Source: Variovorax sp. (GTDB lineage: Bacteria; Pseudomonadota; Gammaproteobacteria; Burkholderiales; Burkholderiaceae_C). Taken from it: 37,950 nt of DNA. How positions within the stretch are numbered: position 1 is the first letter of the stretch; each line of letters begins with the position of its first letter. The translations under genes were made by a program, and so were the position numbers. Positions 7,519 to 32,612 of the stretch are shown here, piece after piece. The DNA lies in contig JANPAK010000035.1 of the NCBI GenBank assembly GCA_031429925.1, forward strand, positions 1 through 37,950. Direction: 5' to 3'. The notes beneath the pieces are model-generated. The model saw nothing but the letters and a program-made list of their open reading frames with translations. It had not been told where the DNA came from and searched no databases.

Positions 7519-8454
7519 TCAAACACCCAGCATGAGTCGAAGGTTTTGCACTGCTGCGCCGCTTGCACCTTTGCCCAAGTTGTCATATCGAGCCACAAGC
7601 ACCGCCTGGCCAAGGGCGTCGTTGCCATACACGGACAACTCCAGCATATTGGAGTTGTTGAGGGCGGTTGGCTCGATGTTTTTGCCTTCAGCAGGCGGAA
7701 TCACCTTCACCCACTCGCAACCTGCATAGCGCGCACGCAGCGCGTCTTCGAGCTGAGAGGCATTTTTAACGCCATTCATCAAATCAAATTGCAGGCAGAT
7801 ATGGTCAATCATCCCACTGTGGAAATTTCCGACAGCGGGAATGAACATGGGTCGGCGCGTCAGGCCGCTGTAATGTTGCAGCTCAGGCACGTGCTTGTGC
7901 GCTAAATTCAGGCCATACACCTCCAGCGGCGGCGCGCTCTTGCTCAGTTCATAGCTTTCAATCATTTGTCTCCCGCCGCCAGAATAGCCGGAAAAGCCTT
8001 GCATCACCACAGGGTAGTCTTTTGGCAAGAGGCCAGCGTCGACCAGAGGGCGCATCAGAGCAATGCCGCCGGTAGGGTAGCAGCCCGGGTTGGCGACGAA
8101 TTGGGCGTTTTTCACCGCCGCTGTTTGCTCGGGGGTTAATTCAGGATAGCCATTTACGCAACCGGGAGCGATGCGGTGAGCTGTCGATGCATCTACCATT
8201 TTTAGGGGCCTGAGGCCTTTTTGAGCTCTAGCCGACGCCAGATCTGCGCAGAGTGCTACGGATTCAATAGCAGATTGATCATGAAGGCAGAGCACAACCA
8301 AATCTGCCTCGTCAAACAGAGCCTTCTTGGCTTCGATGTCTTTGCGCTTTTCGGGCGCAATCGAGAGCACTTGGATTTGCGGCAAGGTCGCCAAGCGCTC
8401 GCGGATTTGCAGCCCAGTGGTGCCCGCCTCGCCGTCGATGAATACTTTTGCCAT
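7519..8454 (-). CDS. argC: N-acetyl-gamma-glutamyl-phosphate reductase
   Basis: [34 protein letters not shown] and [14 protein letters not shown]. Start reassigned to ATG 8454. Confidence 0.95.
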
Positions 8455-8611
8455 GATGGAGCTCTTTCTAGGTGTCAATTTTGGTGCATTGCAACATGAT
8501 ACAGTTACGCGGCTGAAATCGCTTCGTAACTTAAGCTCTGCATTGCGGACGATTTTGCATGAATTTAAGTCTCTCTCGTCATCACAACGACACATAGCCG
8601 GAATCCCTCCC

Positions 8612-9778
8612 ATGAAAATTCACGAGTACCAAGGCAAGGAAATCTTGCGTCAATTCGGCGTGCCAGTCCCGCGGGGCATAGCAGCCTTCACTGTGCAAGA
8701 AGCCATTGAGGCCGCACAAAAGCTGGGCGGACCGGTCTGGGTGGTGAAAGCGCAAATCCACGCCGGTGGCCGCGGCAAAGGCGGTGGCGTGAAAGTGGCC
8801 AAGAGCATTGAAGATGTGAAGCGCCTAGCTGGCGAGATCCTAGGCATGCAACTCGTCACGCACCAAACCGGCCCTGCCGGTCAAAAAGTTCGCCGCTTGT
8901 ACATTGAAGACGGTGCAGATATCAAGCAAGAGTAGTACGTGAGCGCCGTGACCGACCGCGCCACGCAAAAAATTGCCTTCATCGCCTCAGCAGAGGGCGG
9001 TATGGACATTGAAGAAGTGGCGCACAATCGCCCCGAAAAAATCATCACAATTTATGCCGATCCTGTGCTCGGTTTGACAACCGAACAAGCCAAAGATCTA
9101 GCCGATCGCATAGGCATCCCTTCAGACAGCACCGCTCAAGCCGTGGACGTCTTTCAGAAGCTCTACAAATGCTACATGGACACCGATGCAGCCTTGGTGG
9201 AGATCAATCCACTCAACCGCGACAGCAAAGGCAACATCATGGCCTTGGACGCGAAATTCAACTTTGACTCTAACGCTTTGTTTCGCCACCCTGAAATCGT
9301 CGCCTACCGCGATTTGGATGAAGAAGACGCTGCAGAAGTCGAAGCGTCCAAGTTTGATTTGGCCTATATCAGCCTCGATGGCAACATCGGCTGCTTGGTC
9401 AATGGCGCTGGCCTAGCGATGGCCACCATGGACACCATCAAGCTGTATGGCGGCGAGCCGGCCAACTTCCTAGATGTTGGTGGCGGCGCCACCCCAGAGA
9501 AAGTGACCGAGGCCTTCAAGATCATGCTGAAAAACCCGAAAGTCGAAGCCATTTTGGTCAATATTTTTGGTGGCATCATGAAGTGCGACACGATTGCAAC
9601 CGGCATCATCACCGCCTGCAAAGCCACCAATTTGTCTGTGCCGCTGGTTGTGCGCATGAAGGGCACCAACGAAGAGTTGGGCAAAAAGATGTTGGCCGAG
9701 AGTGGTTTGCCTATCATCAGTGCCGGCTCCATGGCCGAAGCTGCTGAAAAAATTATGGCTGCAGTGAAGAAAGCCTAA
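8612..9778 (+). pseudogene. sucC: Succinyl-CoA synthetase beta subunit interrupted by one in-frame TAG at 8933-8935 (nonsense mutation or sequencing error)
   Basis: MKIHEYQGK...[11 protein letters not shown], then IKQE*YVS, and the same frame continues to [18 protein letters not shown] and NIFGGI. 388 codons if read through. Confidence 0.9.
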
Positions 9779-9787: not shown

Positions 9788-10681
9788 ATGTCGATCTTTA
9801 TCAACAAAAACACTAAAGTCATTACCCAAGGCATCACCGGCAAGACCGGCCAGTTCCACACGGAAAAGTGCCAAGAGTATGCAAACGGCAAAAACTGCTT
9901 CGTTGCGGGTGTGAATCCGAAAAAAGCCGGTGAGTCGATCTTCAACATCCCCATCTACGCTTCCGTGAAAGAGGCTGCCGGCCAAACTGGCGCCACCGTT
10001 TCCGTGATCTACGTGCCGCCCGCAGGCGCAGCCGCTGCAATCTGGGAAGCCGTGGAAGCAGATCTGGATCTGGCCATTTGTATCACCGAAGGCATCCCCG
10101 TGCGCGACATGCTCGAAGTGCGCAACCGCATGAGAGCCAAGGAAGCCGCTGGCGGCAAGAAAACCCTTTTGCTTGGTCCCAATTGCCCTGGTTTGATCAC
10201 CCCAGAAGAAATCAAAATCGGCATCATGCCCGGCCATATTCACCGCAAAGGACGCATCGGCGTGGTCTCCCGCTCCGGTACCCTCACCTATGAAGCTGTC
10301 GCTCAGCTCACCGAAATCGGCCTGGGTCAATCCAGCGCGGTGGGCATCGGTGGCGACCCAATCAACGGCTTGAAGCATATTGACGTGATGCGCGCCTTCA
10401 ACGACGATCCCGACACCGACGCCGTGATCATGATTGGTGAAATCGGTGGCCCTGATGAGGCGGATGCCGCCCGTTGGTGCAAGGCCAATATGAAGAAGCC
10501 TATTGTCGGCTTTATCGCCGGTGTTACGGCGCCGGCTGGAAAGCGCATGGGCCATGCCGGGGCGTTGATTTCTGGCGGTGCAGATACGGCAGATGCCAAG
10601 CTTGCCATCATGGAAGAGTGTGGCTTCAAGATCACACGCAACCCGTCGGAGATGGCCAAGCTACTAAAAGCTATGCTGTAA
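9788..10681 (+). CDS. sucD: Succinyl-CoA synthetase alpha subunit
   Basis: QGITGKTG, GPNCPG, SRSGTLTYE and MGHAGA phospho-His motif. Confidence 0.98.
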   Translation: MSIFINKNTKVITQGITGKTGQFHTEKCQEYANGKNCFVAGVNPKKAGESIFNIPIYASVKEAAGQTGATVSVIYVPPAGAAAAIWEAVEADLDLAICITEGIPVRDMLEVRNRMRAKEAAGGKKTLLLGPNCPGLITPEEIKIGIMPGHIHRKGRIGVVSRSGTLTYEAVAQLTEIGLGQSSAVGIGGDPINGLKHIDVMRAFNDDPDTDAVIMIGEIGGPDEADAARWCKANMKKPIVGFIAGVTAPAGKRMGHAGALISGGADTADAKLAIMEECGFKITRNPSEMAKLLKAML

Positions 10682-10699
10682 GCCGCAGCTTTTCAACAG

Positions 10700-10734
10700 A
10701 AGCCGGATCGCGTGTCCGGCTTTTTTGCTTTTTG
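10700..10734 (+). terminator. Rho-independent terminator after sucD
   Basis: AAGCCGGA-tcgcgtg-TCCGGCTT followed by T-runs. Confidence 0.85.
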
Positions 10735-10820
10735 GGGTGTGATTGCGGTTATCCACATACCGAAGTTGGTCAGATTGCGTCAAAATCGTATGCAAATCAA
10801 CGATAACTGACGGAGAACCT

Positions 10821-11525
10821 ATGGACTTTAGCTCAGGCGCCCTGTGGGGAGCATTTTTTGCCATTGTAGTGGCCAACATTTTGCTTTCTGGCGACAACGC
10901 CGTTGTCATCGCTATGGCGGCACGCCAATTGCCGCCAGCACAGCAGAAGAAAGCGATTTTTTGGGGCAGCGCGGCGGCCATTGTTATGCGCGTGATCTTG
11001 ACGGTTGTTGCGGTGCAGCTACTCGCTGTGCCCTACATCAAGATCGTAGGAGGTCTATTGCTGTTCTGGATTGGGGTGCAGCTACTGTCTTCTGGCGAAG
11101 ATGACGCCAATGTGAAGTCGCACGGCACCATGCTTGCGGCAGTGCGCACCATCTTGATTGCCGACTTGGTGATGAGTGTCGATAACGTGATTGCTGTTGC
11201 TGCTGCAGCCGATAAGGCGCCAGAGAACATGAGAATCATCTTATTGATTGTTGGACTAGGTTTGTCGATTCCCCTCATCATTGTGGGAAGTACTTTGCTC
11301 ATGAAAGTGATGGAGCGCTATCCGATGATCATCACGTTGGGCGCGGCTTTGCTGGGTTTCCTAGCGGGTAGCATGTTGGTGACTGACCCTGTTGATCGTG
11401 TTTGGTTCGCGGATCATGTGCCCAATGCAGAAATCCTCGTTGGAGTTACTGGAGCCGTGCTTGTCGTGGTCGTTGCAAAGTGGCTGGAGATGCGAAAGAG
11501 TGGGGAATCGTTGAACGGGCCGTGA
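10821..11525 (+). CDS. TerC/YjbE-family membrane protein
   Basis: LLSGDNAVVIAMA, ADLVMSVDNV and GLSIPLI; GGAG before ATG 10821. Confidence 0.9.
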   Translation: MDFSSGALWGAFFAIVVANILLSGDNAVVIAMAARQLPPAQQKKAIFWGSAAAIVMRVILTVVAVQLLAVPYIKIVGGLLLFWIGVQLLSSGEDDANVKSHGTMLAAVRTILIADLVMSVDNVIAVAAAADKAPENMRIILLIVGLGLSIPLIIVGSTLLMKVMERYPMIITLGAALLGFLAGSMLVTDPVDRVWFADHVPNAEILVGVTGAVLVVVVAKWLEMRKSGESLNGP

Positions 11526-11590
11526 CCTGGCAGCTTCGAGAGCTTCGTCGAATCGAGATGCAGGATCGGTGACCGTCTAAAATCTAAGCC

Positions 11591-12328
11591 TTGATTCTTG
11601 TCGATCCTTTGCTGGCATCGGCGTTTGCGCGGAGCCCATCGTTGGATCTCGATATCCTGTCCTTGCTCGTGCCATCGAGCCAAATTGTGCTGATCAATGT
11701 GTTGTTGGCTGGCGATAATGCCGTGGTCATTGTGTTGCTTTGTCGCAACTTACCTGAGGGGCAGCGCAAATGGGGTATCGCTTGCGGTATGGCCGGGGCT
11801 ATTGTTCTGCGGGTGCTGCTCATGGGGTTTGCGATGGCGTTGCTAGCAATGCCCTATCTAAAAATCGTTTGCGCGCTCCTGCTCGTCTGGACCGCAGTGC
11901 AGATACTGACGCCAGACGGTGACACCAATAGCGCAGGAGACAGCCCCCGCCAGTTTTGGGCGACGATCAAGACGGTCATGGCTGTTGATTTCGTCATGAG
12001 CTTTGACCATGTCTTGGCAATTGCTGGTGCAGCACAAAATGCGCAAGCTCAATACCAGTTGCACTTGGTCTTACTTGGCCTCTTATTGAGTATTCCAGTG
12101 ATTGTGGCTGGCAGTCAAAGGGTGCTTCAATTTACCGAACGGTGGCCTGTCCTGGTCACCTTGACTGCCATGTTGTTGGGCTGGATCGCCGGACAAATGG
12201 TTTACTCGGACGATGCACTCAATGATGTGCGACCGCAAGGGCAGGTTTGGATTTTGAGTTTTGGGTTTGCCGGTGCTTGGCTGGTTTGGGTGATCAGCCG
12301 CGCGCTTCTATCGCGGGAGCAAAATTGA
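11591..12328 (+). CDS. Second TerC/YjbE-family membrane protein (start uncertain)
   Basis: LLAGDNAVVI, DFVMSFDHV and GLLLSIPVI; no clear RBS or ATG start. Confidence 0.8.
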   Translation: MILVDPLLASAFARSPSLDLDILSLLVPSSQIVLINVLLAGDNAVVIVLLCRNLPEGQRKWGIACGMAGAIVLRVLLMGFAMALLAMPYLKIVCALLLVWTAVQILTPDGDTNSAGDSPRQFWATIKTVMAVDFVMSFDHVLAIAGAAQNAQAQYQLHLVLLGLLLSIPVIVAGSQRVLQFTERWPVLVTLTAMLLGWIAGQMVYSDDALNDVRPQGQVWILSFGFAGAWLVWVISRALLSREQN

Positions 12329-12569
12329 TCTTCGGCGCCAGATAGGCAACTGCAATCAAGGTTTGAGGCGGGCGGTGTGGCGCACTCGAGTCCTAACGCT
12401 GCCGCAAATTTGCAACATTCTGTCTTCACGGCGTGATAAATTGCCTTGATTGAATCCCATGCGTCTGTTATGGTTACGCCTAATGGGTGGAGAAAATCTC
12501 TACTAAAGACAAGCACTTAGCGCTCTTTTTTGAAAAGCGACTTCGGATTTTGCAGAGTGAGGGGCGATC

Positions 12570-15341
12570 GTGGCGACATCCACACTATTGAAAAGCGGGA
12601 ATTTTTGGCGCGCCGACTGGTTTGTTGGCGTGCTTGTGGTCGTTGCGGTCTTGCTGCTGCATAGCTTCGGGGATTTGATTGGCACCTTGGAGCGTCGCTA
12701 CTACGACTTTGCGAGCACTTCGACCAGCCGCACGCCGTCAGACAAAATTGCGGTGATTGCAATCGACGACGTCAGCATTGCCAACATTGGGCGGTGGCCT
12801 TGGAGCCGCGACGTCCATGCACAAATGACCGATCTACTTTCAGGCGCTAAAGCAAAGGTCATTGCCAACACCACTTTTTTCTTCGAGCCGCAAACGGACC
12901 GAGGTCTCATTTATATTCGTAAGATTAAAGAGAGCCTAGGGTCAATCGATCCCGCCAATCCTCATCCTGGCGCCGACCAAGCAACGAAAATTATCGCTGA
13001 GGCAGAGACCGCGCTTGATACGGATGCCAAGTTGGCAAACAGCATTGCAAAAGCGGGAAATGTTGTTTTACCGTCGGTTTTCAAGATCGGCGAACCGCTT
13101 GGTAACCCTGACAAACCGTTGCCTGCCTTTGCGCTCAAGAGTGCGGTGGACGAGAGCCAAGGCTTTTCGCTCCCTGCCCTTTCCGGGCAACAGCCCATTG
13201 AGCTAATCGGAAGTGCTGCTGTTGGTGTGGCGCACTTGAATCAGTGGCTGGATGTTGATGGGGCTGTCAGGTACGAGCCTTTGCTTGTGAATTACTACGG
13301 GAAGGCGGTGCCTTCGATGGCGCTGCTCGTGGCAGCGAAGAGTCTGAACTTAAATGCGAGCGATATCAAGCTCAACTATGGCGAATCCGTGCAGATTGGA
13401 AAGCTCAAAGTCAAAACCGATGAGGCGGCGCTGATGTTGCCGCAGTTTTACAAGAATACCGCGGACAAGCGTGCGTTCCCTGTCGATTCGTTCTACGATG
13501 TGCTGTCTGGAAAGATCCCCGCGTCCAAGTATGCAGATAAGATCGTCATTATTGGCGCCACAGCGGCTGGCGTGGGTACGATCTTTGCAACGCCCGCCGC
13601 CAAGGACATGAGCCCAGCTGAAACGATCGCGCACGTCACGTCGAGCATACTGGGGGAGCACTTTATTGTTCAGCCCAACTGGGGAGTATGGGTCTCGCTC
13701 GGTGCTTTTCTGATGGTTGCCGCATACCTGATCGTTCTGTTGCCGCGTCTGTCTGCTGGAATGGGCGCAGGTGTAACGGCTGGGTTCTTTGCTCTTCTCT
13801 TGTGCTTGGAGTTTGGCTTGCTGGCTGGAGCCTCGACTTGGCTTAAGCTCGTTTTGCCCGTAATCCTACTCGTGATTGGCCATCTGGCGCTCACCACAAA
13901 GCGCTTCCTTGTGACGGAAGCCGGTAAAGCCAAATCGGACGAGGAGTCGGCAGAAACCAACCGCATGATGGGTCTGGCGCTTCAGGGCCAGGGACAGTTG
14001 GATATGGCATTTGATCGCTTCCGTCGCGTGCCTGCAACATCGGCTTTGTTGGATAACATGGGTAACCTCGCTCTTGATTTTGAGCGTAAGCGGCAATTTA
14101 ACAAAGCCCAAGCGGTCTACGAGCACATGGCATCGCTCGACAAAGACCATAAAGGTTTGCAAGATAAGCTTAATCGCGCCAAGAACCTATCAGAAACAGT
14201 CATCCTCGGTGGTGGCGGTAGCCATCCTGGCGGAACGATGCTGTTGGATGGTGGTGGAGTCGAAAAACCCATGCTGGGTCGATATCAGGTCGAAAAGGAG
14301 CTGGGCAAAGGTGCAATGGGGGTCGTCTATTTGGGTAAAGACCCCAAGATCGGCCGCGTGGTAGCCATTAAGACCATGGCGCTTTCGCAAGAGTTTGATG
14401 GCGATGAGCTCGTCGATGCTAGGGAGCGATTCTTCCGTGAAGCGGAAACCGCAGGGCGACTACAGCATCCCTACATCGTGACGATCTATGACGCTGGCGA
14501 AGAGCATGACTTGGCCTACATCGCTATGGAGTTCCTCAAAGGCAAAGACTTGCTGGACTACTGCAAGGATGGCAATTTGCTGCCGATGCAGCGGGTGGTG
14601 TCGATCGTTGAGCGCGTGGCGGGGGCATTGTCGTATGCTCACAAAAATAGCGTGGTGCACCGTGATATCAAGCCTGCGAACGTCATGTATGAGCACAGCT
14701 CAGATACCGTGAAGGTGACCGACTTTGGCATCGCCCGGATTACCGACTCCAGCAAGACCAAGACAGGCATGGTTCTCGGTACGCCAAGCTTCATGAGTCC
14801 CGAGCAGCTTGCAGGCAAAAAGGTGGATGGTCGCTCAGATTTGTATTCACTGGGTGTCATGCTGTTTCAGATGCTAGCGGGTGTGTTGCCTTTCCGAGGT
14901 GATTCGATGGCTGAGTTGATGTACAAGATTGCAAATGAAGATGCTCCAGACATCCGCATCATCCGTGCGGAGATTCCACAAAAGCTTGCAGACATCGTGG
15001 CTATGAGCCTGTCTAAGCGGCCTGAAACACGCTACCAAGATGGCGACCAGTTTGCGGCTGACCTGAAAGCGGTAATGAGCGAACTAGGAGGTCCACCCTC
15101 AAATGGTTTGCCAGCCGCAGCCCCCGCAACGCTGTCGGCTGCAATGCCAGCCGATGAAAAGACGCAGATCCTACAAACAGGCGCCGTTGCCGATATGGCA
15201 ACTCAAGTGCTTAGGCCCACTGGCACCGACGATAAAACACAGATATTTTCAAGGGTTGAAGATGCCGTCGCACCTCCGCTAGTGCCCGCTGAAGACCCAT
15301 TCGAAAAAACCATCATAACTCGCCCGCGGGGTAACACTTGA
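12570..15341 (+). CDS. Membrane CHASE2-domain Hanks-type Ser/Thr protein kinase
   Basis: N-terminal TM, CHASE2 signature IAIDD.SI..IGRWPWSR and DVDGAVR, 3 TMs, TPR-like helical linker, kinase motifs GKGAMG, VAIK, HRDIKPAN, DFG and GTPSFMSPE. Confidence 0.95.
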   Translation: MATSTLLKSGNFWRADWFVGVLVVVAVLLLHSFGDLIGTLERRYYDFASTSTSRTPSDKIAVIAIDDVSIANIGRWPWSRDVHAQMTDLLSGAKAKVIANTTFFFEPQTDRGLIYIRKIKESLGSIDPANPHPGADQATKIIAEAETALDTDAKLANSIAKAGNVVLPSVFKIGEPLGNPDKPLPAFALKSAVDESQGFSLPALSGQQPIELIGSAAVGVAHLNQWLDVDGAVRYEPLLVNYYGKAVPSMALLVAAKSLNLNASDIKLNYGESVQIGKLKVKTDEAALMLPQFYKNTADKRAFPVDSFYDVLSGKIPASKYADKIVIIGATAAGVGTIFATPAAKDMSPAETIAHVTSSILGEHFIVQPNWGVWVSLGAFLMVAAYLIVLLPRLSAGMGAGVTAGFFALLLCLEFGLLAGASTWLKLVLPVILLVIGHLALTTKRFLVTEAGKAKSDEESAETNRMMGLALQGQGQLDMAFDRFRRVPATSALLDNMGNLALDFERKRQFNKAQAVYEHMASLDKDHKGLQDKLNRAKNLSETVILGGGGSHPGGTMLLDGGGVEKPMLGRYQVEKELGKGAMGVVYLGKDPKIGRVVAIKTMALSQEFDGDELVDARERFFREAETAGRLQHPYIVTIYDAGEEHDLAYIAMEFLKGKDLLDYCKDGNLLPMQRVVSIVERVAGALSYAHKNSVVHRDIKPANVMYEHSSDTVKVTDFGIARITDSSKTKTGMVLGTPSFMSPEQLAGKKVDGRSDLYSLGVMLFQMLAGVLPFRGDSMAELMYKIANEDAPDIRIIRAEIPQKLADIVAMSLSKRPETRYQDGDQFAADLKAVMSELGGPPSNGLPAAAPATLSAAMPADEKTQILQTGAVADMATQVLRPTGTDDKTQIFSRVEDAVAPPLVPAEDPFEKTIITRPRGNT

Positions 15342-15405
15342 CTTTAACGCTGCGATGCGGTCGCCTTATTGCTTCCGAAAGCCGCTATAGTTCGCTATTG
15401 CACTT

Positions 15406-16191
15406 ATGATTTATCAGTTCTCAATTTGTACCGACCCCGGCCTCGCACGAGATAATAACGAGGACTCGGTCGTTTTTGATGCCGCCGCGCAGCTGGCAGT
15501 GTTGGCTGACGGTATGGGTGGTTATAACGCGGGCGAAGTCGCGAGTGGAATGGCGACCGCATTTATCAAGTCTGAAATGAGCCGATGGTTATCTCAGACG
15601 GGTAAGAATGCAAACGCGCGCGAGGTGCGTCGCGCACTAGAGATTTGCGTGGATAACGCCAATCGTTCGATTTTCAATGCTGCGAGCTCCAACCCTCAAT
15701 ACACGGGCATGGGCACTACGCTGGTCGTCGGCGCCTTCCAAGGCAATCGCCTGATGCTCGGGCATATTGGGGATTCGCGCTGCTATCGCTTGCGTGGGGC
15801 GGAATTTAGCCAGATCACAAAAGATCACTCCTTGCTCCAAGAGCAATTAGATGCCGGACTGATTACGCCCGAACAAGCCGCAACGTCGCTTAACAAGAAT
15901 CTTGTGACACGCGCTTTGGGGGTTGAAGACGTGGTGATGTTGGAGACCAACGAACACCGCGCTGAAGTGGGTGACCTTTACCTGATGTGCTCCGATGGCT
16001 TGTCTGACATGGTCTCGGACGACGACATCGCTGATATCATGCAAGGCACAGAGAATTTGGATGTTAAGGCTAAAGCCTTAATCGATGCGGCTAATGCAGG
16101 CGGTGGCAGGGACAACATCTCTGTGTTGCTGGCGCTAGCCAAGGATGGGCAGAGCAAACGCGGCTTCATGTCGCGCTTGTTGGGCAAGTAA
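15406..16191 (+). CDS. PP2C/PPM-family Ser/Thr phosphatase (Stp1/IreP type)
   Basis: R..NED, ADGMGG, GMGTT, GDSR, CSDGL and GG.DNI motifs. Confidence 0.95.
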   Translation: MIYQFSICTDPGLARDNNEDSVVFDAAAQLAVLADGMGGYNAGEVASGMATAFIKSEMSRWLSQTGKNANAREVRRALEICVDNANRSIFNAASSNPQYTGMGTTLVVGAFQGNRLMLGHIGDSRCYRLRGAEFSQITKDHSLLQEQLDAGLITPEQAATSLNKNLVTRALGVEDVVMLETNEHRAEVGDLYLMCSDGLSDMVSDDDIADIMQGTENLDVKAKALIDAANAGGGRDNISVLLALAKDGQSKRGFMSRLLGK

Positions 16192-16216
16192 ACATACTCA
16201 ACAACAGGAGCCGACC

Positions 16217-16864
16217 ATGCCGAAAATGATCGTGTCGATCGACGGTGTCGTCATCAAAGAAGTTCAGCTGACTAAAGACCGCACCACGTTAGGTCGCAGG
16301 CCGTATAACGACATTGTGATCGACAACTTGGCGGTTAGCGGCGAACATGCGGTGATTCAACTCGCTGGCAATGATGTCAGCCTCGAGGACTTGAACAGCA
16401 CCAATGGGACATACATCAACGGTAAAGCTGTGAAAAAGCAGCAACTTGCCAACAATGACACGATTGAGATTGGCAAGTACAAGATCAAGTACGTTAACGA
16501 GCAGCAAGAGGCGGGATTTGAGCGTACGATGGTCATCAAGGCGGGCGCTGCTGGATTGACGGCACCCCCACCAACCAACGCAGCGACCCCACCTGCTCCC
16601 AATGCCCAGGCCGCGATCAAGGTGATGTCAGGGGCGGCCGCAGGTCGAGAGGTGCCCTTAGTGAAGGTGGTGACAACAATTGGAAAGCCTGGCGTCGCCG
16701 TTGCAGCCATTACCAAACGTCCCCACGGGTTTGTTGTGGCTCATGTCGAGGGAACGAGTAAGCCATTGCTCAATGGCACCCCAATAGGGTCTGAGCCGGT
16801 CACCCTCAAGGATGGTGATGTGCTGGAGCTGGCGGGTACCCAAATGCAGTTCGTCCTAGGATAG
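16217..16864 (+). CDS. FHA-domain protein (intact N-terminal FHA plus degenerate C-terminal FHA-like domain)
   Basis: LGRR..NDI, VSGEHA and DLNSTNGT. CAGGAG RBS before ATG 16217. Confidence 0.92.
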   Translation: MPKMIVSIDGVVIKEVQLTKDRTTLGRRPYNDIVIDNLAVSGEHAVIQLAGNDVSLEDLNSTNGTYINGKAVKKQQLANNDTIEIGKYKIKYVNEQQEAGFERTMVIKAGAAGLTAPPPTNAATPPAPNAQAAIKVMSGAAAGREVPLVKVVTTIGKPGVAVAAITKRPHGFVVAHVEGTSKPLLNGTPIGSEPVTLKDGDVLELAGTQMQFVLG

Positions 16865-16942
16865 GTTCACTGGTCCAAATAGCACAGTGGCAGCCTCAAT
16901 CCGCGACCATACTGAGCTATCGACTAAGACGTAGGAAACATC

Positions 16943-19210
16943 GTGGCGATTCTGAGGCATTGGCCACGTATTGGGGTCACCCTTTTGCCCTTGATGGTGG
17001 CGTTGTTGCATGCCGCCAATGTCGTTCCTTTAACCGTGCTTCAGCGGCTGGATGACATCATTTATGATGCCCGCCTTCGAGCAACCATGCCCAAAAGTAT
17101 TGACGAGCGAATCGTCATTCTCGATATTGATGAGAAAAGCTTGGCTGAGGTTGGTCGTTGGCCGTGGGCGCGGAACAAAATGGCCAGTTTGGTCGACGAG
17201 CTCTTTGATCGCCAAAAAGTCGCTATCCTGGGGCTTGATGTGGTGTTTGCTGAGGCAGACGAGAGCTCGGGGCTGAAGCGCCTGCGTCAGTTGGCGAGCA
17301 ATGAATTCAAGGATCAACCAGGCTTTGGAGAGCGACTGAATCAGATTCAATCGAGCTTGGATTACGACAGCCTTTTCGCGCGCTCCCTTGAAAACCGCCC
17401 AGTGGTCTTGGGCTATTACATGACTAGTGATCGCGAAGGCCGCACCAGCGGCGTGTTACCCGCGCCGGTCATGGAAAAAACCGCCCTTCTTGGGCGCCCT
17501 ATTAAGTTTACGAGCTGGTCGGGCTTTGGGTCCAACATTGAATCATTGGCGAAGGCAGCACCGGTAGCGGGCTTCTTCAATTCGGTTACAGATACCGACG
17601 GTGTAGTGCGATCTATTCCGTTGGTGGCCGAATACAAAGGGCAGTATTACGAATCTCTGGCGGTGGCGATGTTTCGTGTGTTGACTGGCATGCCTAAAAT
17701 CGAGCCAGGTTTCCCGCAGGAGCGCTTTCTCGCAAGAGGTTACCAAGGGCTAGAAAGCATCCTTCTCAAGCAAGGGGGCAAGAGCCTCGCCATACCCGTA
17801 GATGATCGTGTCGCCACATTGGTGCCCTTTCGGGGGCCGGGCAATATCTCGGGCGGCTCGTTTAAATACATCTCCGCCGCAGATGTATTGGCGCGTCGAG
17901 TTGCACCTGGAGCGTTGTCGGGCAAGATCATATTGCTTGGCACGACGGCTCCTGGCTTGTTGGATTTGCGCGTCACTCCTGTTGGCGAAACCTATCCCGG
18001 TGTCGAGGTGCATGCGAATGTGATCTCAGGTCTTTTGGACGGGCGCCTTTATGTCAAGCCTGACTACGCGGTCGGATACGATGTGATCGTATTGCTTTTG
18101 GCCGGTTTGATATTGGCCTTCGCTCTACCCCTCCTATCGGCGCCCAAGGCGGTCGCGTTGAGTGCAGTAGTGATCACTGCGCTGGTCAGCCTGAACTTCT
18201 GGCTCTATTTGGGTGCTGGGTTGGTGTTGCCTTTGGCCGCTGCCCTAGTGATGGCGCTGACCGCGTTTGCCTTGAACATGAGCTATGGCTACTTTGTTGA
18301 GAGTAAGTCCAAGCGACAGATTGCCAACTTATTTGGCACTTATGTGCCGCCAGAGTTGGTGGACGAAATGGTAAAGGATCCCGATAGCTACAACATGAAG
18401 GCAACAAGCAAAGAGCTGACGGTGATGTTTTGCGATATGCGTGGCTTCACCAAGCTGAGTGAAACGATGGAGCCCACCCAGTTGCAGGGCCTGCTCAACG
18501 ATGTGTTCAGTCGGTTGACCAATGTTATCCGTAACAATCGAGGCACGATTGATAAATACATGGGCGACTGCGTCATGGCGTTCTGGGGCGCGCCCGTGGA
18601 TGCGCCGGACCACGCTGCGCTGGCGGTGAAAACCGCGATGGAGATGGCAAATGAGGTGCGCAAGATCAATGAAGAATACCGCGCCAAAGGCACACCTGAA
18701 ATCGGAGTGGGCATCGGACTGAATACCGGCTCGATGTGCGTGGGCGACATGGGCTCGTCGATTCGCAAGAGCTACACCGTGATTGGCGACTCAGTCAACC
18801 TCGGATCGCGCTTAGAGGGCTTGTCCAAAACCTATGGCGTCGACATCGTCGTGAGTGAGTCAACCAAGCAGCTCGCGACAGATTTCGCGTGGCAAGAGCT
18901 GGACAGGGTACGAGTCAAGGGCAAAGACCAAGCGGTGACCATTTTCTGGCCATTGGCCCCTCTGGATCGCCTGCCCAAGGAGTTGGGGGATGAAATCAAG
19001 CTGTGGAATAGCTTCCTGAAGTCCTATCGAAATCAAGATTGGGACCAGTGCGATCTGCAAATGCTCAATATAGAACGCAGCCAGACGTCCAAGAGCGGCA
19101 AATCTGCCAAAAAATACCTTTACCAACTGTATTCTGAGCGTGTAGCCTCAATGCGTCAGCTGCCGTTTGACCCGAGCTGGGACGGGGCGACTAATTTTGA
19201 GACCAAGTAA
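16943..19210 (+). CDS. Membrane CHASE2-domain class III adenylate cyclase
   Basis: IDEKSL..VGRWPW.R and DTDGVVR (CHASE2), 3 TMs, catalytic FCDMRGFT, DKYMGD and YTVIGDSVNLGSRLE (Lys/Thr purine-specifying pair typical of bacterial adenylate cyclases). Confidence 0.93.
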   Translation: MAILRHWPRIGVTLLPLMVALLHAANVVPLTVLQRLDDIIYDARLRATMPKSIDERIVILDIDEKSLAEVGRWPWARNKMASLVDELFDRQKVAILGLDVVFAEADESSGLKRLRQLASNEFKDQPGFGERLNQIQSSLDYDSLFARSLENRPVVLGYYMTSDREGRTSGVLPAPVMEKTALLGRPIKFTSWSGFGSNIESLAKAAPVAGFFNSVTDTDGVVRSIPLVAEYKGQYYESLAVAMFRVLTGMPKIEPGFPQERFLARGYQGLESILLKQGGKSLAIPVDDRVATLVPFRGPGNISGGSFKYISAADVLARRVAPGALSGKIILLGTTAPGLLDLRVTPVGETYPGVEVHANVISGLLDGRLYVKPDYAVGYDVIVLLLAGLILAFALPLLSAPKAVALSAVVITALVSLNFWLYLGAGLVLPLAAALVMALTAFALNMSYGYFVESKSKRQIANLFGTYVPPELVDEMVKDPDSYNMKATSKELTVMFCDMRGFTKLSETMEPTQLQGLLNDVFSRLTNVIRNNRGTIDKYMGDCVMAFWGAPVDAPDHAALAVKTAMEMANEVRKINEEYRAKGTPEIGVGIGLNTGSMCVGDMGSSIRKSYTVIGDSVNLGSRLEGLSKTYGVDIVVSESTKQLATDFAWQELDRVRVKGKDQAVTIFWPLAPLDRLPKELGDEIKLWNSFLKSYRNQDWDQCDLQMLNIERSQTSKSGKSAKKYLYQLYSERVASMRQLPFDPSWDGATNFETK

Positions 19211-19224
19211 GGCAGCTATTCCTC

Positions 19225-20016
19225 ATGAAAATCAGGGTTCTAGGATGCTCCGGCGCCATCGCCAAAGACTGCCGCACTACGTCATTCTTGATTGATGATG
19301 ACGTGCTGGTGGATGCGGGCACGGGCGTCGGCGATCTGACCTTGGTTGAAATGGCGGCGATCAATGATGTCTTGATCACACACTCGCACTTGGACCACAT
19401 CGCTAACCTGCCGTTGATGATTGACTCTGTGGCTTCGATGCGCACGCAACCCTTGCGCGTCCATGCATTGGCCGAAACTATCGAGGCATTGCAAAAGCAT
19501 ATATTTAACAGTTTAATTTGGCCAGACTTCACTAGAATTCCTACTTTGGAAGCGCCTTTCTTGAGCTTTCATCCTTTACAAACGGGCGCGCGTTTGCGAA
19601 TTGGCAATAAGATGGTGGAGGCATTGCCAGCGGTTCACACGGTGCCAGCCGTGGGGTATGCCATCACCGCAGGTGCAGGCTGCTGGGTGTTTTCGGGAGA
19701 TACGGAGCGCAATCCTGCTTTTTGGCAGCGCATCAACCAAATGAATGTGGCGATGCTGGTGATTGAGACGGCATTTTCCAACCGTGAAAAGCAGTTGGCG
19801 AAACTGAGTTTGCATTTGTCGCCCAATGTCTTGGCGCAAGAGCTTGATCAGATCGACAAGGCCAAGCGTTTCCCAATTTACATCATGCACACGAAGCCGG
19901 CTGAGACTGAGCAAATCATGGAGGAAATCCAGCGCTTTGACCAAACGCAACCCTTCGGACCTAACGTGACCCACGATATCCGCTGGTTACGAGCCGGACA
20001 GGAGCTCACTGTATGA
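19225..20016 (+). CDS. Metallo-beta-lactamase-fold 3',5'-cyclic-nucleotide phosphodiesterase (class II-like)
   Basis: LGCSG, DAGTG, THSHLDH, FNSLIWPDF, HTVP, SGDT and LHL motifs; adjacent to the cyclase. Confidence 0.85.
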   Translation: MKIRVLGCSGAIAKDCRTTSFLIDDDVLVDAGTGVGDLTLVEMAAINDVLITHSHLDHIANLPLMIDSVASMRTQPLRVHALAETIEALQKHIFNSLIWPDFTRIPTLEAPFLSFHPLQTGARLRIGNKMVEALPAVHTVPAVGYAITAGAGCWVFSGDTERNPAFWQRINQMNVAMLVIETAFSNREKQLAKLSLHLSPNVLAQELDQIDKAKRFPIYIMHTKPAETEQIMEEIQRFDQTQPFGPNVTHDIRWLRAGQELTV

Positions 20017-22445
20017 ATGCCGTTCTCAAGCCATCCACAATCTCAACGGACGCAGCAGAAAAAGCCTTCTTCGATTCGCAGATGTTGCCTAAAGAAAAGC
20101 GCGGCGTCACGTTTGAAGTCCTGTTTTATCGCCAATTGCAACAGGTGACGACGCGTATCCATGCAACGGACAACATCGACCAACTGATGTTGGAAGCTAG
20201 CGACGACATCTGCAAACTACTCAATGCAGATCGACTCACGTTGTATGCAATGAACGAAGACCAGACGGCAATTGTTTCCAAGATCAAGACGGGTTTAAAT
20301 GTTGCTAAGGATCTGAAACTACCGATCGGAGTTCAGAGCATTGCGGGATACGTCGCGATGGTGCGTCAGCCGGTAAACATTGCGGATGTCTATGACGATG
20401 AGGCATTGAAACGCATCCATCCGGCACTGTCTTTCCTTAAAGAGGTCGACAAGCGTTCAGGCTATCGCACCAAGCAAATGTTGGTGATGCCGATCTTGGA
20501 TGGCGAAAACTTGTACGGCGTCTTGCAGGTGATCAACAACAAAGGCGATGCGCCGTTTGGCGACTTAGAACTTGAAGGCGCAGACCAGCTTTGTAAGACT
20601 TTAGCAACCGCTATTCGACAGCGTGCTGAGAAAGCCAGCAAACAAGCTGAAGATTCTGCCCGTAAGCGAGCCACCAAATACGATGGTTTGATGAAGGATG
20701 GCGTGATTACTGCGGAGCAGCTTAAAGATTGCGTTGCTCGAGCCCGAGAGCAATCCAAATCGGTTGAGCATTTGCTGATGGCGGACTTTGGAATTCGACC
20801 CAGCCAAATTGGACCCTCGCTATCCAAATTCTTTGGCGTCGACTATGAGCCGTTCAAGGGAGGACGGATTCGTTCAGAAATGCTGCACTCCCCACTTAAG
20901 CTCGATTTTGTGCACTCGCAGGGTTGGATTCCTTTGGAAGAAACGCCAGAGGGCTTGGTGGTGATGTGCCTTGACCCTGAAGCGGTACGCGGATCGCGGA
21001 TTGTTCAGCAAATTTTCCCCCGTGTGTCGAAGATCAAGTATTGCATCACGACGCAAACAGAGTTTGAAGAAACCATCGTCCAGTTTTTTGGCGCAGGCGT
21101 GGAGGGGGGGTCGATTGATGAGTTGCTGGCTGATTTGAACTCACCGCTAGACGATGACGCAGATGAGTCGGCACTTGAATCAGCGGCGGCCGACAACGAA
21201 TTGGTGAAATTCGTCAACAAAGTCATTATCGACGCGTACAACCAGCGCGTCTCAGACATTCACATCGAACCGATGCCCGGTAAAGAAAAAACGGGTATTC
21301 GCTTTCGCATTGATGGCAGTCTGCAAACTTACATTGAAGTGCCGGCCAGCTTTAGGCAAGCCTTGGTCACGCGCTTGAAAATCATGTGTGATCTCGATAT
21401 TTCCGAGAAACGTAAGCCGCAAGACGGCAAAATAAAGTTCAAGAAGTATGGCCCCTTAGATATCGAACTGCGCGTGGCCACCATTCCATCTTCTGGAGGC
21501 ATGGAAGATGTCGTGATGCGAATTTTGGCCTCGGGCGAACCAATTCCGATGGATAAGTTGGGCCTTACGCCGCACAACCGAGAGCGACTCGAGAAAACGG
21601 TCTCCAAGCCTTATGGACTATTCTATGTTTGTGGTCCAACAGGCTCAGGCAAGACAACGACCTTACATTCTGTCTTGAAGTTTCTTAACAAGGTCGATAC
21701 AAAAATCTGGACCGCAGAAGACCCGGTTGAAATCACGCAAAAAGGGCTGCGGCAGGTTCAGATCAATAAGAAGGCCGGCATTGACTTTGCACTTATCATG
21801 CGCGCATTCCTGCGGGCTGACCCCGACATCATTATGGTGGGCGAGTCGCGCGACAAAGAAACGGTGAGCATGGGCGTAGAAGCCTCTCTGACAGGCCACC
21901 TCGTTTTCTCCACGCTGCATACCAACAGCGCACCCGAGTCGATCATTCGCTTGTTAGACATGGGCATGGACCCCTTCAATTTTGCCGACGCGCTTCTGGG
22001 CATCCTTGCGCAACGCTTGGCCAAAAAGCTCTGTGACTGCAAAGATGAATACACGCCAGATGCGAAAGAGATCAAGGCATTCATGCTGGAATACGCGGAG
22101 GATTTGCAGCACACCGCAGCTTGGGTGGCCGATCCGGGCGGTTCACAACAAGAGCTGCTGCAGACCTGGATCGATAACTACGGCAAAGACGGGCAACTTC
22201 GCTTCTATCGCCACGTGGGTTGCGATAAATGCAACAAGACGGGCTACAAGGGCCGCATTGGCTTGCATGAATTGCTGGTCGCAGATGACATAGTGAAAAA
22301 ACTCATCCAAGAGCGCGCCCGTGTCGCCGATATCTTTGTGGCGGCGGTGGGCGGCGGTATGCGCACCTTGAAGATGGACGGTATGGAAAAAGTCATGATG
22401 GGCTTGACCGATATCAAGATGGTGCGGCAGGTCTGTATCAAATAG
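20013..22445 (+). CDS. GspE/PilB-family secretion/pilus ATPase with N-terminal GAF domain
   Basis: GAF (DRLTLY, SIAGYVA, VDKRSGYRTKQMLVMPI, GVLQVINNK), SDIHIEP, Walker A GPTGSGKTT, EDPVE, LRADPDIIMVGE, His box TGHLVFSTLHTN, C..C/GC..C zinc motif; ATGA overlap with the PDE gene. Confidence 0.93.
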   Translation: MNAVLKPSTISTDAAEKAFFDSQMLPKEKRGVTFEVLFYRQLQQVTTRIHATDNIDQLMLEASDDICKLLNADRLTLYAMNEDQTAIVSKIKTGLNVAKDLKLPIGVQSIAGYVAMVRQPVNIADVYDDEALKRIHPALSFLKEVDKRSGYRTKQMLVMPILDGENLYGVLQVINNKGDAPFGDLELEGADQLCKTLATAIRQRAEKASKQAEDSARKRATKYDGLMKDGVITAEQLKDCVARAREQSKSVEHLLMADFGIRPSQIGPSLSKFFGVDYEPFKGGRIRSEMLHSPLKLDFVHSQGWIPLEETPEGLVVMCLDPEAVRGSRIVQQIFPRVSKIKYCITTQTEFEETIVQFFGAGVEGGSIDELLADLNSPLDDDADESALESAAADNELVKFVNKVIIDAYNQRVSDIHIEPMPGKEKTGIRFRIDGSLQTYIEVPASFRQALVTRLKIMCDLDISEKRKPQDGKIKFKKYGPLDIELRVATIPSSGGMEDVVMRILASGEPIPMDKLGLTPHNRERLEKTVSKPYGLFYVCGPTGSGKTTTLHSVLKFLNKVDTKIWTAEDPVEITQKGLRQVQINKKAGIDFALIMRAFLRADPDIIMVGESRDKETVSMGVEASLTGHLVFSTLHTNSAPESIIRLLDMGMDPFNFADALLGILAQRLAKKLCDCKDEYTPDAKEIKAFMLEYAEDLQHTAAWVADPGGSQQELLQTWIDNYGKDGQLRFYRHVGCDKCNKTGYKGRIGLHELLVADDIVKKLIQERARVADIFVAAVGGGMRTLKMDGMEKVMMGLTDIKMVRQVCIK

Positions 22446-22479
22446 AACCCATGCCTTGTTCAGGCGGAGTTATAGGTCG

Positions 22480-23982
22480 ATGAAAAGTGTTCCCAAATGG
22501 CTGATCAGCGTCAGCATGGCGGTAGCCCTGCTGGGCTGCGGCACGCAAACCGTCAACCCCGTCACCGGCCAACAAGAGCGCTCTGTGATGAGCGAGGCAG
22601 ACGAAGTGCGCGAAGGGGCGAAGGGGCATCAGGAGGTGCTTAAAGAGTACGGTGTACTGAAAAATGATCGCGTGCAAAACTATGTGAACGATATTGGACA
22701 ACGACTGGCCAAGCTTTCGCATCGCAGCCAACTCAAATGGACATTTACCGTGCTCGATAGCCCCGAGATCAATGCCTTTGCGCTGCCTGGGGGCTATGTG
22801 TACATCACGCGAGGCATCATGGCTTACTTGGACAGCGAGGCTGATTTGGCGGGCGTCGTGGGGCATGAAATTGGTCACGTCACGGCGCGGCATGGCGCGC
22901 AGCGTGCAACGCGTCAACAAAACGCTGCTGTCGGAGCGATCTTGGGCGGGCTGCTGGGCGCGGTGCTCGATGCCAAAGGTGGCGGCGGTATTGGTCAGCA
23001 GATCGGCGAGGCTTCCCAAGCAGCCGCTGCAGGCTATGTTGCGAAGTATGGGCGCGAGCAAGAGTTGCAAGCCGATGGCTTGGGCGCGGAATACTTGAGC
23101 CGCGTCAACTACGACCCGCGCAACATGATTGACGTGATCCGTGTGCTCAAAGATCAGGAGCGTTTTTCTGGAGACGTGGCGCGCGCGGAGGGCCGACCCG
23201 TGCCGCAGGGCGGCAATTCGTGGCTCGCCTCACATCCGAGCAATGATCAGCGGCTTGAGGCCATCTCCAAGATCGCTGCGCAATACCAAATCAATAAGAA
23301 TTATGCGGATGAAGGGCGCGTTCGCTATCTGCAGGTGATCGACGGCATGCCCTTTGGTGAAAGCCCGGAGCAGGGGCTTACGCGAGGGAGAAATTTTTAT
23401 CATTCGGGTTTGAACTTTGCACTCACCGCTGCCAATGGCTGGCGCATCAACAATGAAGCCGAGCAACTGACGATCGTCAACGCTGCTGGCGATGCAGCAC
23501 TAATCGTACAACTTGCACCCGCCGATGCAGGCCGCACGCATGAGGACGTGATTCGCAATGCCGTCAAACCTAGCTCAGGCCGCATTGAGCGCTATGCTAT
23601 CAACGGATTGCAAGCTTCGCATTTCACGGGAACTGTGCAAGCCCAAGGTGGGCAGCGCAGTATCGAGCTCACGGTAGCTACTGGCGCGAGCGGGCAGAAT
23701 TTTATCTTCCTCTACGCCGCCAAAGATGCCGCCACCCTGCAGCGCAACCGTGTCGTATTGAAAGACATAGAAAACACCTTTCGCGGCATGAGCGCGCAAG
23801 ATACCGCTGCTGCCAAGCCTTGGATCATTCGAAGCGCAGCCTTGCCACGCGGAGGCTTTGCAGATTTGGCGCGTACTGCGCCGATGGCCACACTGCCTGA
23901 GCAACAACTCAAGCTTATGAACGGTGTGTATTCCAGTGGCACAGTGCAGCCGGGGGCGTTGGTGAAGATGGTGGTGCAGTGA
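22480..23982 (+). CDS. M48-family zinc metalloprotease lipoprotein
   Basis: LLGC lipobox, NAFALPGG, HEIGH, YGREQELQAD and SHP; extended C-terminal domains. Confidence 0.9.
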   Translation: MKSVPKWLISVSMAVALLGCGTQTVNPVTGQQERSVMSEADEVREGAKGHQEVLKEYGVLKNDRVQNYVNDIGQRLAKLSHRSQLKWTFTVLDSPEINAFALPGGYVYITRGIMAYLDSEADLAGVVGHEIGHVTARHGAQRATRQQNAAVGAILGGLLGAVLDAKGGGGIGQQIGEASQAAAAGYVAKYGREQELQADGLGAEYLSRVNYDPRNMIDVIRVLKDQERFSGDVARAEGRPVPQGGNSWLASHPSNDQRLEAISKIAAQYQINKNYADEGRVRYLQVIDGMPFGESPEQGLTRGRNFYHSGLNFALTAANGWRINNEAEQLTIVNAAGDAALIVQLAPADAGRTHEDVIRNAVKPSSGRIERYAINGLQASHFTGTVQAQGGQRSIELTVATGASGQNFIFLYAAKDAATLQRNRVVLKDIENTFRGMSAQDTAAAKPWIIRSAALPRGGFADLARTAPMATLPEQQLKLMNGVYSSGTVQPGALVKMVVQ

Positions 23983-29518: not shown

Positions 29519-29523
29519 AAACT

Positions 29524-30990: not shown

Positions 30991-31020
30991 TGATTCCTGC
31001 ACCCGTACTTGGTCACAGTC

Positions 31021-31120: not shown

Positions 31121-31168
31121 TCTAGCGAAGATGGTTGCACGCAATCTGCAATCACCAATCGGTAGCGC

Positions 31169-31264: not shown

Positions 31265-31306
31265 ACACGGAGCAACCAAAGTAATCAAAGCGCGAAGGAG
31301 CAATCA

Positions 31307-32176: not shown

Positions 32177-32177
32177 C

Positions 32178-32609: not shown

Positions 32610-32612
32610 ATC

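What the first reader, a model, noticed from the sequence alone, without database searches (positions are those of the whole stretch)
12570..22445. Dual-channel signalling cluster: CHASE2 kinase/PP2C/FHA plus CHASE2 cyclase/PDE/GAF motor ATPase
Seen: six co-oriented genes with gaps of 64, 25, 78 and 14 bp and a final ATGA overlap. They form two complete writer-eraser-reader sets: phospho-Thr (kinase, PP2C, FHA) and cyclic nucleotide (class III cyclase, MBL-fold PDE, GAF domain). Both writers carry the same type of periplasmic CHASE2 sensor. Known: kinase/PP2C/FHA triads (PpkA/PppA/Fha1) switch T6SS on, and cAMP normally controls type IV pili transcriptionally via CRP/Vfr. Here there are no T6SS genes and no CRP-like gene; the only candidate output is a GspE/PilB ATPase. 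Inference: a self-contained system in which one extracytoplasmic cue post-translationally controls a pilus/T2SS motor through both phosphorylation and local cAMP. I know of no characterised system with this architecture, but cannot verify novelty.
Basis: partly seen in the sequence, partly recalled or inferred. Interest (0 to 1): 0.85.

Follow-up and report, generated by a model that had tools for sequence, protein, structure and literature searches.

The report
cAMP-gated pilus motor replacing PilB
Six real, conserved genes encode a protein-phosphorylation switch, a predicted cAMP maker and breaker, and an extra pilus-assembly ATPase whose sensor domain likely binds cAMP; many related bacteria carrying this ATPase lack the standard pilus motor PilB, so it is likely a working, signal-controlled substitute that I found described in no paper searched.

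Summary
The six genes, gaps and domains are as described, with intact catalytic motifs. The cluster is widespread: the GAF-ATPase is in 139 of 301 Burkholderiales genomes, often beside the major pilin gene. The target is the type IVa pilus: of 80 carriers, 79 have pilM, 32 have T2SS gspE and 11 have T6SS. New here: only 36 of 80 carriers keep canonical PilB, versus 53 of 55 pilM-positive non-carriers, and 19 carriers have neither PilB nor TfpB; pilC operons read in five carriers begin without pilB. The ATPase forms its own clade and probably is a third extension motor. Its GAF keeps the cAMP-contact residues of CyaB2, but the NKFDE motif is incomplete and the c-di-GMP motif is absent. 'Self-contained, single output' is overstated: relatives add GAF-HD-GYP and cNMP-binding genes, lose kinase or cyclase, or keep the signalling genes beside pilA without the ATPase. 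This genome's genus keeps PilB. I found no paper on it. The scan noted this cluster before on other DNA (8 notes), without the PilB-loss result in what I saw.

The parts
12446..12474 (+). Candidate sigma-70 promoter (TTGATT, 17 nt, TATGGT) inside a conserved upstream block
   Evidence: Block conserved in 12 of 12 aligned upstream regions of close relatives; 8 of 12 consensus matches, below the scan's threshold. Function inferred.
12570..15341 (+). CHASE2 - 3 TM - TPR-like - Hanks Ser/Thr kinase, with Thr-motif tail (T865, T890, T914)
   Evidence: Pfam; VAIK 598-601, HRD 697-699, DFG 718-720, TM segments; juxtamembrane T543 in 38/40 orthologues, tail motif in 16 of 17 closest kinases and 1 of 23 others
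15406..16191 (+). PP2C/Stp1-type Ser/Thr phosphatase
   Evidence: NCBIfam NF033484 over cut-off, 245 vs 230 bits; metal-binding motifs present
16217..16864 (+). FHA protein: canonical FHA (G26 R27 S41 H44 N63), linker FERT104MVI, second degenerate FHA-like beta domain
   Evidence: Invariant residues in 49/49, T104 in 47/49; two-domain model pLDDT 84.6 with disordered 100-127; best fold matches GarA/OdhI FHA
16943..19210 (+). CHASE2 - TM - class III cyclase, adenylyl-type (D498, D542, K538, T612, N619, R623)
   Evidence: Pfam; aligns with P. aeruginosa CyaB 3r5g E 1.5e-32, Lys and Thr shared, while guanylyl-type 2w01 has Glu at the Lys site; positions
19225..20016 (+). MBL-fold class II cyclic-nucleotide phosphodiesterase (H53-S-H-L-D-H58)
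   Evidence: PDEase_II E 6e-16; best PDB match yeast PDE1 4ojv; HXHLDH is the class II motif (PMC4222275)
20013..22445 (+). GAF - N1 (MshEN-like, c-di-GMP motif absent) - PilB/GspE-family ATPase; candidate third type IVa pilus extension motor
   Evidence: Walker A 541-548, E569/E573, E611, H636, Zn cysteines 674/676/737/740 invariant; GAF best match CyaB2 1ykd E 9e-27; own clade; phyletic pattern
22456..23982 (+). M48 peptidase gene, co-oriented, at the place where relatives have pilA; genus-level neighbour, membership uncertain
   Evidence: Pfam M48; 80-84% orthologues follow the ATPase in 7 close loci
9788..12328 (+). Upstream landmark sucD-terC-terC; the same sucD-terC...pilA locus hosts the cluster in relatives

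Best explanation
This is a conserved signalling cluster of the type IVa pilus whose last gene encodes a PilB-family ATPase that likely acts as an additional extension motor, likely switched by cAMP binding to its own GAF domain, and that likely has taken over from PilB in lineages that lack pilB. Proposed working: a periplasmic cue (unknown) activates the CHASE2 cyclase; cAMP would bind the GAF and activate the hexameric motor without a transcription step; the translationally coupled class II PDE would end the signal. In relatives with the GAF-HD-GYP gene the same cAMP would also lower c-di-GMP. In parallel the CHASE2 kinase would phosphorylate T104 of the FHA protein, which would fold back onto its own FHA pocket and change what the second FHA-like domain binds; PP2C would reset it. 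The FHA target is probably a part of the pilus machine but need not be this ATPase. Shown: gene content, motifs, synteny, phyletic pattern. Inferred: ligand, direction of control, motor activity, all interactions. In this genome's genus the ATPase is an extra motor beside PilB and TfpB.
For: pilM in 79/80 carriers vs 55/80 non-carriers; gspE 32/80; pilin gene within 4.5 kb downstream in 20/40 diverse loci and in L012, L013, L015, L016, L023, L024. PilB over cut-off in 36/80 carriers but in 53 of 55 pilM-positive non-carriers; 19/80 carriers have neither PilB nor TfpB. In G042, G183, G105, G037, G187 the pilC-pilD operon has no pilB upstream, whereas control G014 has it. In five f19 genomes only two large extension-type ATPases are found, this one and a second that in G042 and G183 sits in a separate operon with its own platform and pilin-like genes. 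ATPase motifs invariant in 76 sequences. CyaB2 cAMP contacts R291, T293, I308, D356, N359 (PMC4411481) map to R74, T76, I91, D146, S149; R, T and D are invariant in 63/63. PDE is the tightest neighbour, 34/40. In another class of the phylum, distant GAF-ATPases again lie by GAF-HD-GYP or CHASE2-cyclase genes in 6 of 12 loci fetched. Precedents: two motors in A. baylyi (PMC8213720); cAMP-activated GAF-HD-GYP Tlr0485 (10.1101/2021.11.05.467447).
Against: No activity, binding or expression data. NKFDE motif incomplete: N175 and F182 invariant, K in 33/63, the Asp position not conserved, and this motif is needed in other cNMP GAFs (PMC11977230). The best structural GAF match is PtsP (Z 20.3), ahead of PDE5 (19.1) and CyaB2 (15.9). 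The cyclase orthologue is missing in 21 of 80 carriers, though 5 of 5 such genomes tested have other class III cyclases. The PDE is present in 33/80 non-carriers and the signalling genes stay without the ATPase. 25 of the 44 PilB-less carriers have TfpB, and G105, G043, G074, G031, G190 hold further unclassified ATPases. Kin are not independent: PilB state changes 5 times on a 30-row PilM tree but starred branches force only one change. Extension ATPases are usually machine-specific (PMC11656802).
Confidence: 0.55

Rival explanations
1. The cluster is a general regulatory hub of the pilA locus. cAMP acts mainly through CRP-like regulators, the GAF-HD-GYP enzyme or the cNMP-rhodanese protein; the ATPase is a pilus motor, but its GAF is unliganded, binds something else (cGMP or a metabolite) or only dimerises.
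For: Signalling genes persist without the ATPase, with a pilin adjacent in 9 of 20 such loci and FHA in 10 of 20; 13 cNMP-binding matches in the own genome; incomplete NKFDE; an isolated CyaB2 GAF-B binds both cAMP and cGMP (PMC4411481).
Against: Ligand-pocket residues R74, T76, D146, Q172 are invariant in 63/63, unlikely for an empty pocket; the minimal retained unit is PDE+ATPase (L064-L067, L075); cyclase is adenylyl-type.
Confidence: 0.25
2. The GAF-ATPase is an accessory or priming factor rather than a stand-alone extension motor; where pilB is lost, TfpB or another orphan ATPase does the work.
For: TfpB in 49/80 carriers; extra unclassified ATPases in several PilB-less genomes; the ATPase fails the PilB model cut-off, 463 vs 676 bits, and groups with orphan ATPases of unknown function.
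Against: 19/80 carriers lack both PilB and TfpB, including all sampled members of f8, f19, f20, f35, f51; pilB is almost never missing without the GAF-ATPase (2 of 55, both drafts from families whose other members carry it).
Confidence: 0.13
3. The ATPase powers a type II secretion system, or the kinase-PP2C-FHA trio controls a T6SS encoded elsewhere.
For: Best structural matches include GspE; own genome has a full T2SS; PpkA/PppA/Fha1 precedent (recalled).
Against: gspE only 32/80 and VipB 11/80 carriers; no VipB in own genome; the own T2SS has its own GspE in its operon; ATPase outside the GspE branch.
Confidence: 0.05

Closest known systems
PilB/TfpB two-motor system of Acinetobacter baylyi (PMC8213720; passages read)
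   Same: An orphan, phylogenetically distinct extension-type ATPase serving the same type IVa machine; the paper notes one species with tfpB but no pilB.
   Different: This ATPase is neither PilB nor TfpB (below both cut-offs; separate clade), carries a GAF sensor and sits in a signalling cluster; the own genome has TfpB separately.
c-di-GMP-gated MshE/PilB/PilF ATPases with MshEN domain (motif table in PMC10333796)
   Same: Second messenger read directly by an N-terminal domain of the assembly ATPase; weak MshEN Pfam match.
   Different: The RLGxxL motif is replaced by KYDGL or similar in all 16 rows shown; the sensor is a GAF of the cNMP type.
Pil-Chp / CyaB / Vfr cAMP control of P. aeruginosa pili (PMC11656802; passages and section 11 read)
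   Same: Class III adenylyl cyclase linked to type IVa pili.
   Different: There cAMP acts through transcription; the review has 0 mentions of GAF or FHA. Here the candidate receptor is the motor.
cNMP-binding GAF domains: Anabaena CyaB2, PDE2/5/10, and GAF-HD-GYP Tlr0485/PmGH
   Same: Closest solved sequence relatives of the GAF; pocket residues conserved; relatives encode a GAF-HD-GYP next door.
   Different: Fused to a motor ATPase; NKFDE incomplete.
Kinase/PP2C/FHA switches: T6SS PpkA-PppA-Fha1 (recalled), GarA/OdhI (fold matches; mechanism recalled), Sulfolobus PP2A-ArnA-ArnB control of type IV filaments (10.64898/2026.08.11.744115; abstract read)
   Same: Writer-eraser-reader trio; FHA protein with its own conserved Thr motif; in Sulfolobus a phosphatase module controls pili and twitching.
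   Different: No T6SS; tandem FHA plus FHA-like architecture; CHASE2 sensor kinase; bacterial type IVa pilus context.

Membership tests
PilB (TIGR02538) | Score over the equivalog cut-off | tested here: not met
   462.7 vs 675.65 bits
PilB (TIGR02538) | Branches with PilB; gene upstream of pilC | tested here: not met
   Separate clade, SH-aLRT 99, quick trees only; not beside pilC
PilB/GspE-type assembly ATPases | Walker A/B, Asp box, His box, four-cysteine zinc site, N2D-CTD fold | tested here: met
   Foldseek TMt 0.84-0.85 to PilF/PilB cores
PilB/GspE-type assembly ATPases | Drives pilus extension; binds PilC/PilM | not testable with these tools
TfpB (NF053534) | Score over cut-off; TfpB clade | tested here: not met
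   379 vs 850 bits; own TfpB is on contig C105, 870 bits
GspE (TIGR02533) | Score over cut-off; co-occurs with T2SS | tested here: not met
   432 vs 630 bits; gspE in 32/80 carriers
MshEN c-di-GMP receptor | RLGxx(L/V/I)(L/V/I)xxG motif | tested here: not met
   KYDGLMKDG in the window; RLG absent in 16 of 16 rows printed out of 63; motif from PMC10333796
cNMP-binding GAF | Pocket residues equivalent to CyaB2 R291, T293, I308, D356, N359 | tested here: met
   R74, T76, I91, D146 identical; S149 (T in most) for N359
cNMP-binding GAF | NKFDE motif | tested here: inconclusive
   N and F invariant, K/R 47/63, Asp position variable
cNMP-binding GAF | Measured cAMP or cGMP binding | not testable with these tools
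   Needs a binding assay
Class III adenylyl cyclase | Two metal Asp, Lys and Thr/Asp for adenine, Asn and Arg | tested here: met
   D498, D542, K538, T612, N619, R623
Class II cNMP phosphodiesterase | HXHLDH motif, MBL fold | tested here: met
   substrate untested
T6SS PpkA/PppA/Fha1 module | Association with T6SS core genes | tested here: not met
   VipB 0/1 own genome, 11/80 carriers; TagH model 42 vs 120 bits
pThr-binding FHA domain | G-R, S-x-x-H and N-G motifs | tested here: met
   First domain, 49/49; second domain lacks them

The most novel reading that the evidence does not exclude
A third class of type IVa pilus extension motor, present in about half of Burkholderiales lineages, is turned on directly by cAMP through a fused GAF domain, is supplied by its own membrane cyclase/PDE pair and tuned by a Ser/Thr kinase-FHA switch, and has displaced PilB outright in several families, so that in those bacteria pilus extension is wired to cAMP at the motor itself.
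Probability: 0.4. Interest if true: 0.9.

Novelty: new variant of a known kind. Interest (0 to 1): 0.76.

Why it matters
PilB is treated as the universal extension motor of type IVa pili, with c-di-GMP as the only nucleotide known to act on such motors directly and cAMP acting through transcription (PMC11656802). A widespread motor with a cNMP-type GAF, and whole families with pilM, pilC, pilD and pilT but no pilB, would change both points. It gives simple tests (cAMP binding to one domain; single deletion in a PilB-less strain) and bears on the review's open question of why bacteria carry several extension ATPases. It would also explain genomes that look as if their pilus system were incomplete.

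Tried and rejected
Complex prediction (FHA protein with ATPase; then PilM with ATPase) was not available, so no statement on binding is made. No RNA holder was listed for the cluster. No Rfam match in the window. Promoter and terminator scan at chance level. T2SS and T6SS targets rejected by co-occurrence. The idea that FHA/PP2C are dedicated to the ATPase was weakened; that the PDE is exclusive to it. Absence of pilB and pilC in the own assembly is not used as evidence: pilD starts at a contig end and 5 of 5 close relatives have PilB. Careful tree did not finish; only quick trees are used (9 of 39 PilM rows were dropped by my pattern). First domain slices for kinase and ATPase core were out of frame; redone. 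Literature: 10 searches gave no paper describing the cluster or a GAF-fused PilB; the two Ramlibacter papers (passages) do not describe it, one only counts three PilB paralogues. Subscription journals and supplements were not searched. One review on GAF structure was not held. Papers seen only as listings are not cited as evidence.
Full report
Observation. The six ORFs, their lengths, the gaps (64, 25, 78, 14) and the ATGA overlap are exact. Pfam and NCBIfam give CHASE2-kinase, Stp1-type PP2C, FHA, CHASE2-class III cyclase, class II/MBL phosphodiesterase and GAF-T2SSE ATPase. Catalytic motifs are intact in all enzymes. The nearest named relatives are Comamonadaceae (Variovorax sp. PCZ-1 and MAGs, Ramlibacter albus). 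The window is contig C35 of a 521-contig assembly, 96% complete.

Conservation. All six genes stand in the same order in 15 of the 22 loci; 3 are cut by contig ends, 3 lack kinase and cyclase, 1 lacks the PDE. The GAF-plus-N1 part of the ATPase matched 139 of 301 genomes drawn across the order at E 1e-45, in 60 of 145 genera. From these I fetched 40 loci chosen for family spread and contig size: PDE upstream in 34, GAF-HD-GYP directly downstream in 28, PP2C and FHA in 27 each, a pilin gene within 4.5 kb downstream in 20, kinase in 17, cyclase in 15, cNMP-binding/rhodanese in 3, all six genes in 14 (some loci end at a contig edge). In Comamonadaceae the site is sucD-terC-[cluster]-pilA (L012, L013, L016, L023, L024). 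In the window's genus an M48 peptidase gene follows instead and the pilins lie on another contig. In a phylum-wide sample, 33 of 401 genomes matched at 1e-25; 25 belong to another class, where 30-35% identical GAF-ATPases lie near GAF-HD-GYP or CHASE2-cyclase genes in 6 of 12 loci fetched. The Atlas, queried with homologue P0090, lists GAF-MshEN-T2SSE clusters with automatic names only.

Which machine. I tested the first 80 of the 138 other carriers and 80 of the 162 non-carriers. pilM: 79/80 against 55/80. T2SS gspE 32/80 and T6SS vipB 11/80 of carriers. The ATPase therefore goes with the type IVa pilus. Canonical PilB was found in only 36/80 carriers but in 55/80 non-carriers, including 53 of the 55 with pilM; the two exceptions are drafts from families whose other members carry the GAF-ATPase and lack PilB. 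TfpB is in 49/80 carriers; 19 have neither. The search scored at most 14 candidates per genome, so I checked directly: in five PilB-negative carriers (1 to 6 contigs) pilC-pilD has no pilB upstream, while control G014 has; full T2SSE listings of ten genomes show, in five f19 genomes, only this ATPase and one other large one, which in the two read lies in a separate operon with its own platform gene; the other five genomes hold additional ATPases that I did not all classify. Fisher tests are very small but overstate, since kin are not independent; on a PilM tree of 30 rows the state changes 5 times (shuffled mean 8.5), yet starred branches force only one. Mixed families (f28 1/4, f4 1/2, f60 2/3) hint at repeated loss. 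The window's own genus keeps PilB; its absence from this assembly is an assembly gap, and TfpB, PilT/U, pilM-Q and a T2SS are present.

The ATPase. It scores below the cut-offs of PilB, TfpB and GspE. In quick trees the betaproteobacterial GAF-ATPases form one clade (SH-aLRT 99) inside a larger clade (100) with the distant GAF-ATPases and orphan ATPases without GAF; this clade, PilB and TfpB meet at an unresolved fork (89). The model (pLDDT 77.5) matches PilF, PilB and GspE cores. The N1 region has a weak MshEN match but not the c-di-GMP motif. The GAF's closest solved sequences are CyaB2 (E 9e-27), PmGH and PDE GAFs. Using the contact list of PMC4411481 (passages) and the alignment, R291, T293, I308, D356 and N359 correspond to R74, T76, I91, D146 and S149; R74, T76, D146 and Q172 are invariant in 63 sequences. 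Against: NKFDE is incomplete, which matters in other GAFs (PMC11977230, passages); by structure PtsP GAF ranks first; isolated CyaB2 GAF-B also binds cGMP. The cyclase has the adenylyl Lys/Thr pair like P. aeruginosa CyaB, so cAMP is the likelier ligand.

The phospho arm. The FHA protein has two beta domains joined by a disordered linker; the first has all pThr-binding residues and matches GarA/OdhI folds; the linker carries F-E-(K/R)-T104-M-V-(I/L), with T in 47/49. A Thr with a hydrophobic residue at +3 is a typical FHA ligand (recalled). The kinase has a conserved juxtamembrane T543 (38/40) and, in 16 of the 17 closest orthologues but 1 of 23 others, one to three copies of a similar motif in its tail. 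I infer self-capture of phosphorylated T104 as in GarA/OdhI (mechanism recalled). The target is open. PP2C-FHA stay next to the ATPase without kinase or cyclase (L023, L047, L073), and 4 of 5 such genomes tested lack the kinase orthologue, one lacking any Hanks kinase at 1e-30. Conversely the PDE occurs in 33/80 non-carriers; in 20 such loci fetched, FHA is present in 10, a pilin is adjacent in 9 and all five signalling genes in 2.

Mechanism, committed. CHASE2 cyclase makes cAMP; the coupled PDE limits it; cAMP binds the motor's GAF and promotes extension; where present the GAF-HD-GYP lowers c-di-GMP at the same time, by analogy with Tlr0485 (10.1101/2021.11.05.467447, passages; HD_5 and GAF domains); the kinase/PP2C/FHA switch tunes a pilus component. 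Gene content and patterns are shown; ligand, direction, motor activity and interactions are inferred. Confidence 0.55; the motor claim alone about 0.8.

Known and new. Extra extension motors are known (TfpB; PMC8213720, passages) and so is direct nucleotide gating by c-di-GMP. The 2024 PilB review describes cAMP only via Vfr and never mentions GAF or FHA (PMC11656802). Ten literature searches found no description of this cluster; subscription journals and supplements are outside them. Eight earlier AI notes of this scan describe the same cluster in other genomes (I had found the pilA link before reading them); a word look-up for PilB loss returned none. Verdict: real, conserved, uncharacterised; a new variant of signal-gated pilus motors, with PilB displacement as the strongest new evidence. 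Interest 0.76.

Noticed in passing
window 8327-9778 (+): sucC is interrupted by an in-frame TAG at 8933-8935 with the frame continuing; probably a sequencing or assembly error, or a pseudogene; not checked with reads.
   Followed up: partly
window 12400-12530: Conserved non-coding blocks upstream of the kinase gene in 12 close relatives (TTTGCAAC, GTGA, TGCCTTGATT, GTCTGTTA, ACTTAGCGC); besides the candidate promoter they may be regulator sites.
   Followed up: partly
G000:C269:14971-16935 (-); L033, L034, L035, L036, L038, L039, L042: A sister group of orphan PilB-family ATPases without GAF, many with long unannotated N-termini; the own genome has one (654 aa). Function unknown.
   Followed up: partly
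G000:C297:514-1200: A second, stand-alone FHA protein 42% identical to the cluster's.
   Followed up: no
G000:C213:4272-6458 (-): Receiver - class III cyclase-like - Ser/Thr kinase fusion protein, 728 aa.
   Followed up: no
L025:9868-10950, L028:9712-10749, L044, L057, L061, L142: cNMP-binding plus rhodanese protein inserted between PDE and ATPase; a candidate second cAMP receptor.
   Followed up: partly
L063, L083, L153, L158: A short M48 peptidase gene (284-302 aa) sits directly beside the cyclase or PDE gene in several families; M48 genes may be a recurring part of the module.
   Followed up: partly
L149:11818-14235: PDE and GAF-HD-GYP are fused into one 805-aa ORF where the ATPase gene is missing.
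   Followed up: no
L137:5985-8656 (-): A divergent 605-aa GAF-ATPase without N1 domain, again overlapping an MBL-fold hydrolase gene of another subfamily.
   Followed up: partly
L026:1323-6834 (-): In G016 the ATPase is followed by a FecR-TPR-TonB-barrel gene and a different CHASE2 cyclase.
   Followed up: no
window 35340-36370 (-): Barnase-type ribonuclease and barstar gene pair; ordinary.
   Followed up: no
window 27080-34217 (+): Aromatic-catabolism cluster (MarR, two FAA hydrolases, aldehyde dehydrogenase, LigB dioxygenase, CHMI isomerase, aldolase); ordinary.
   Followed up: no
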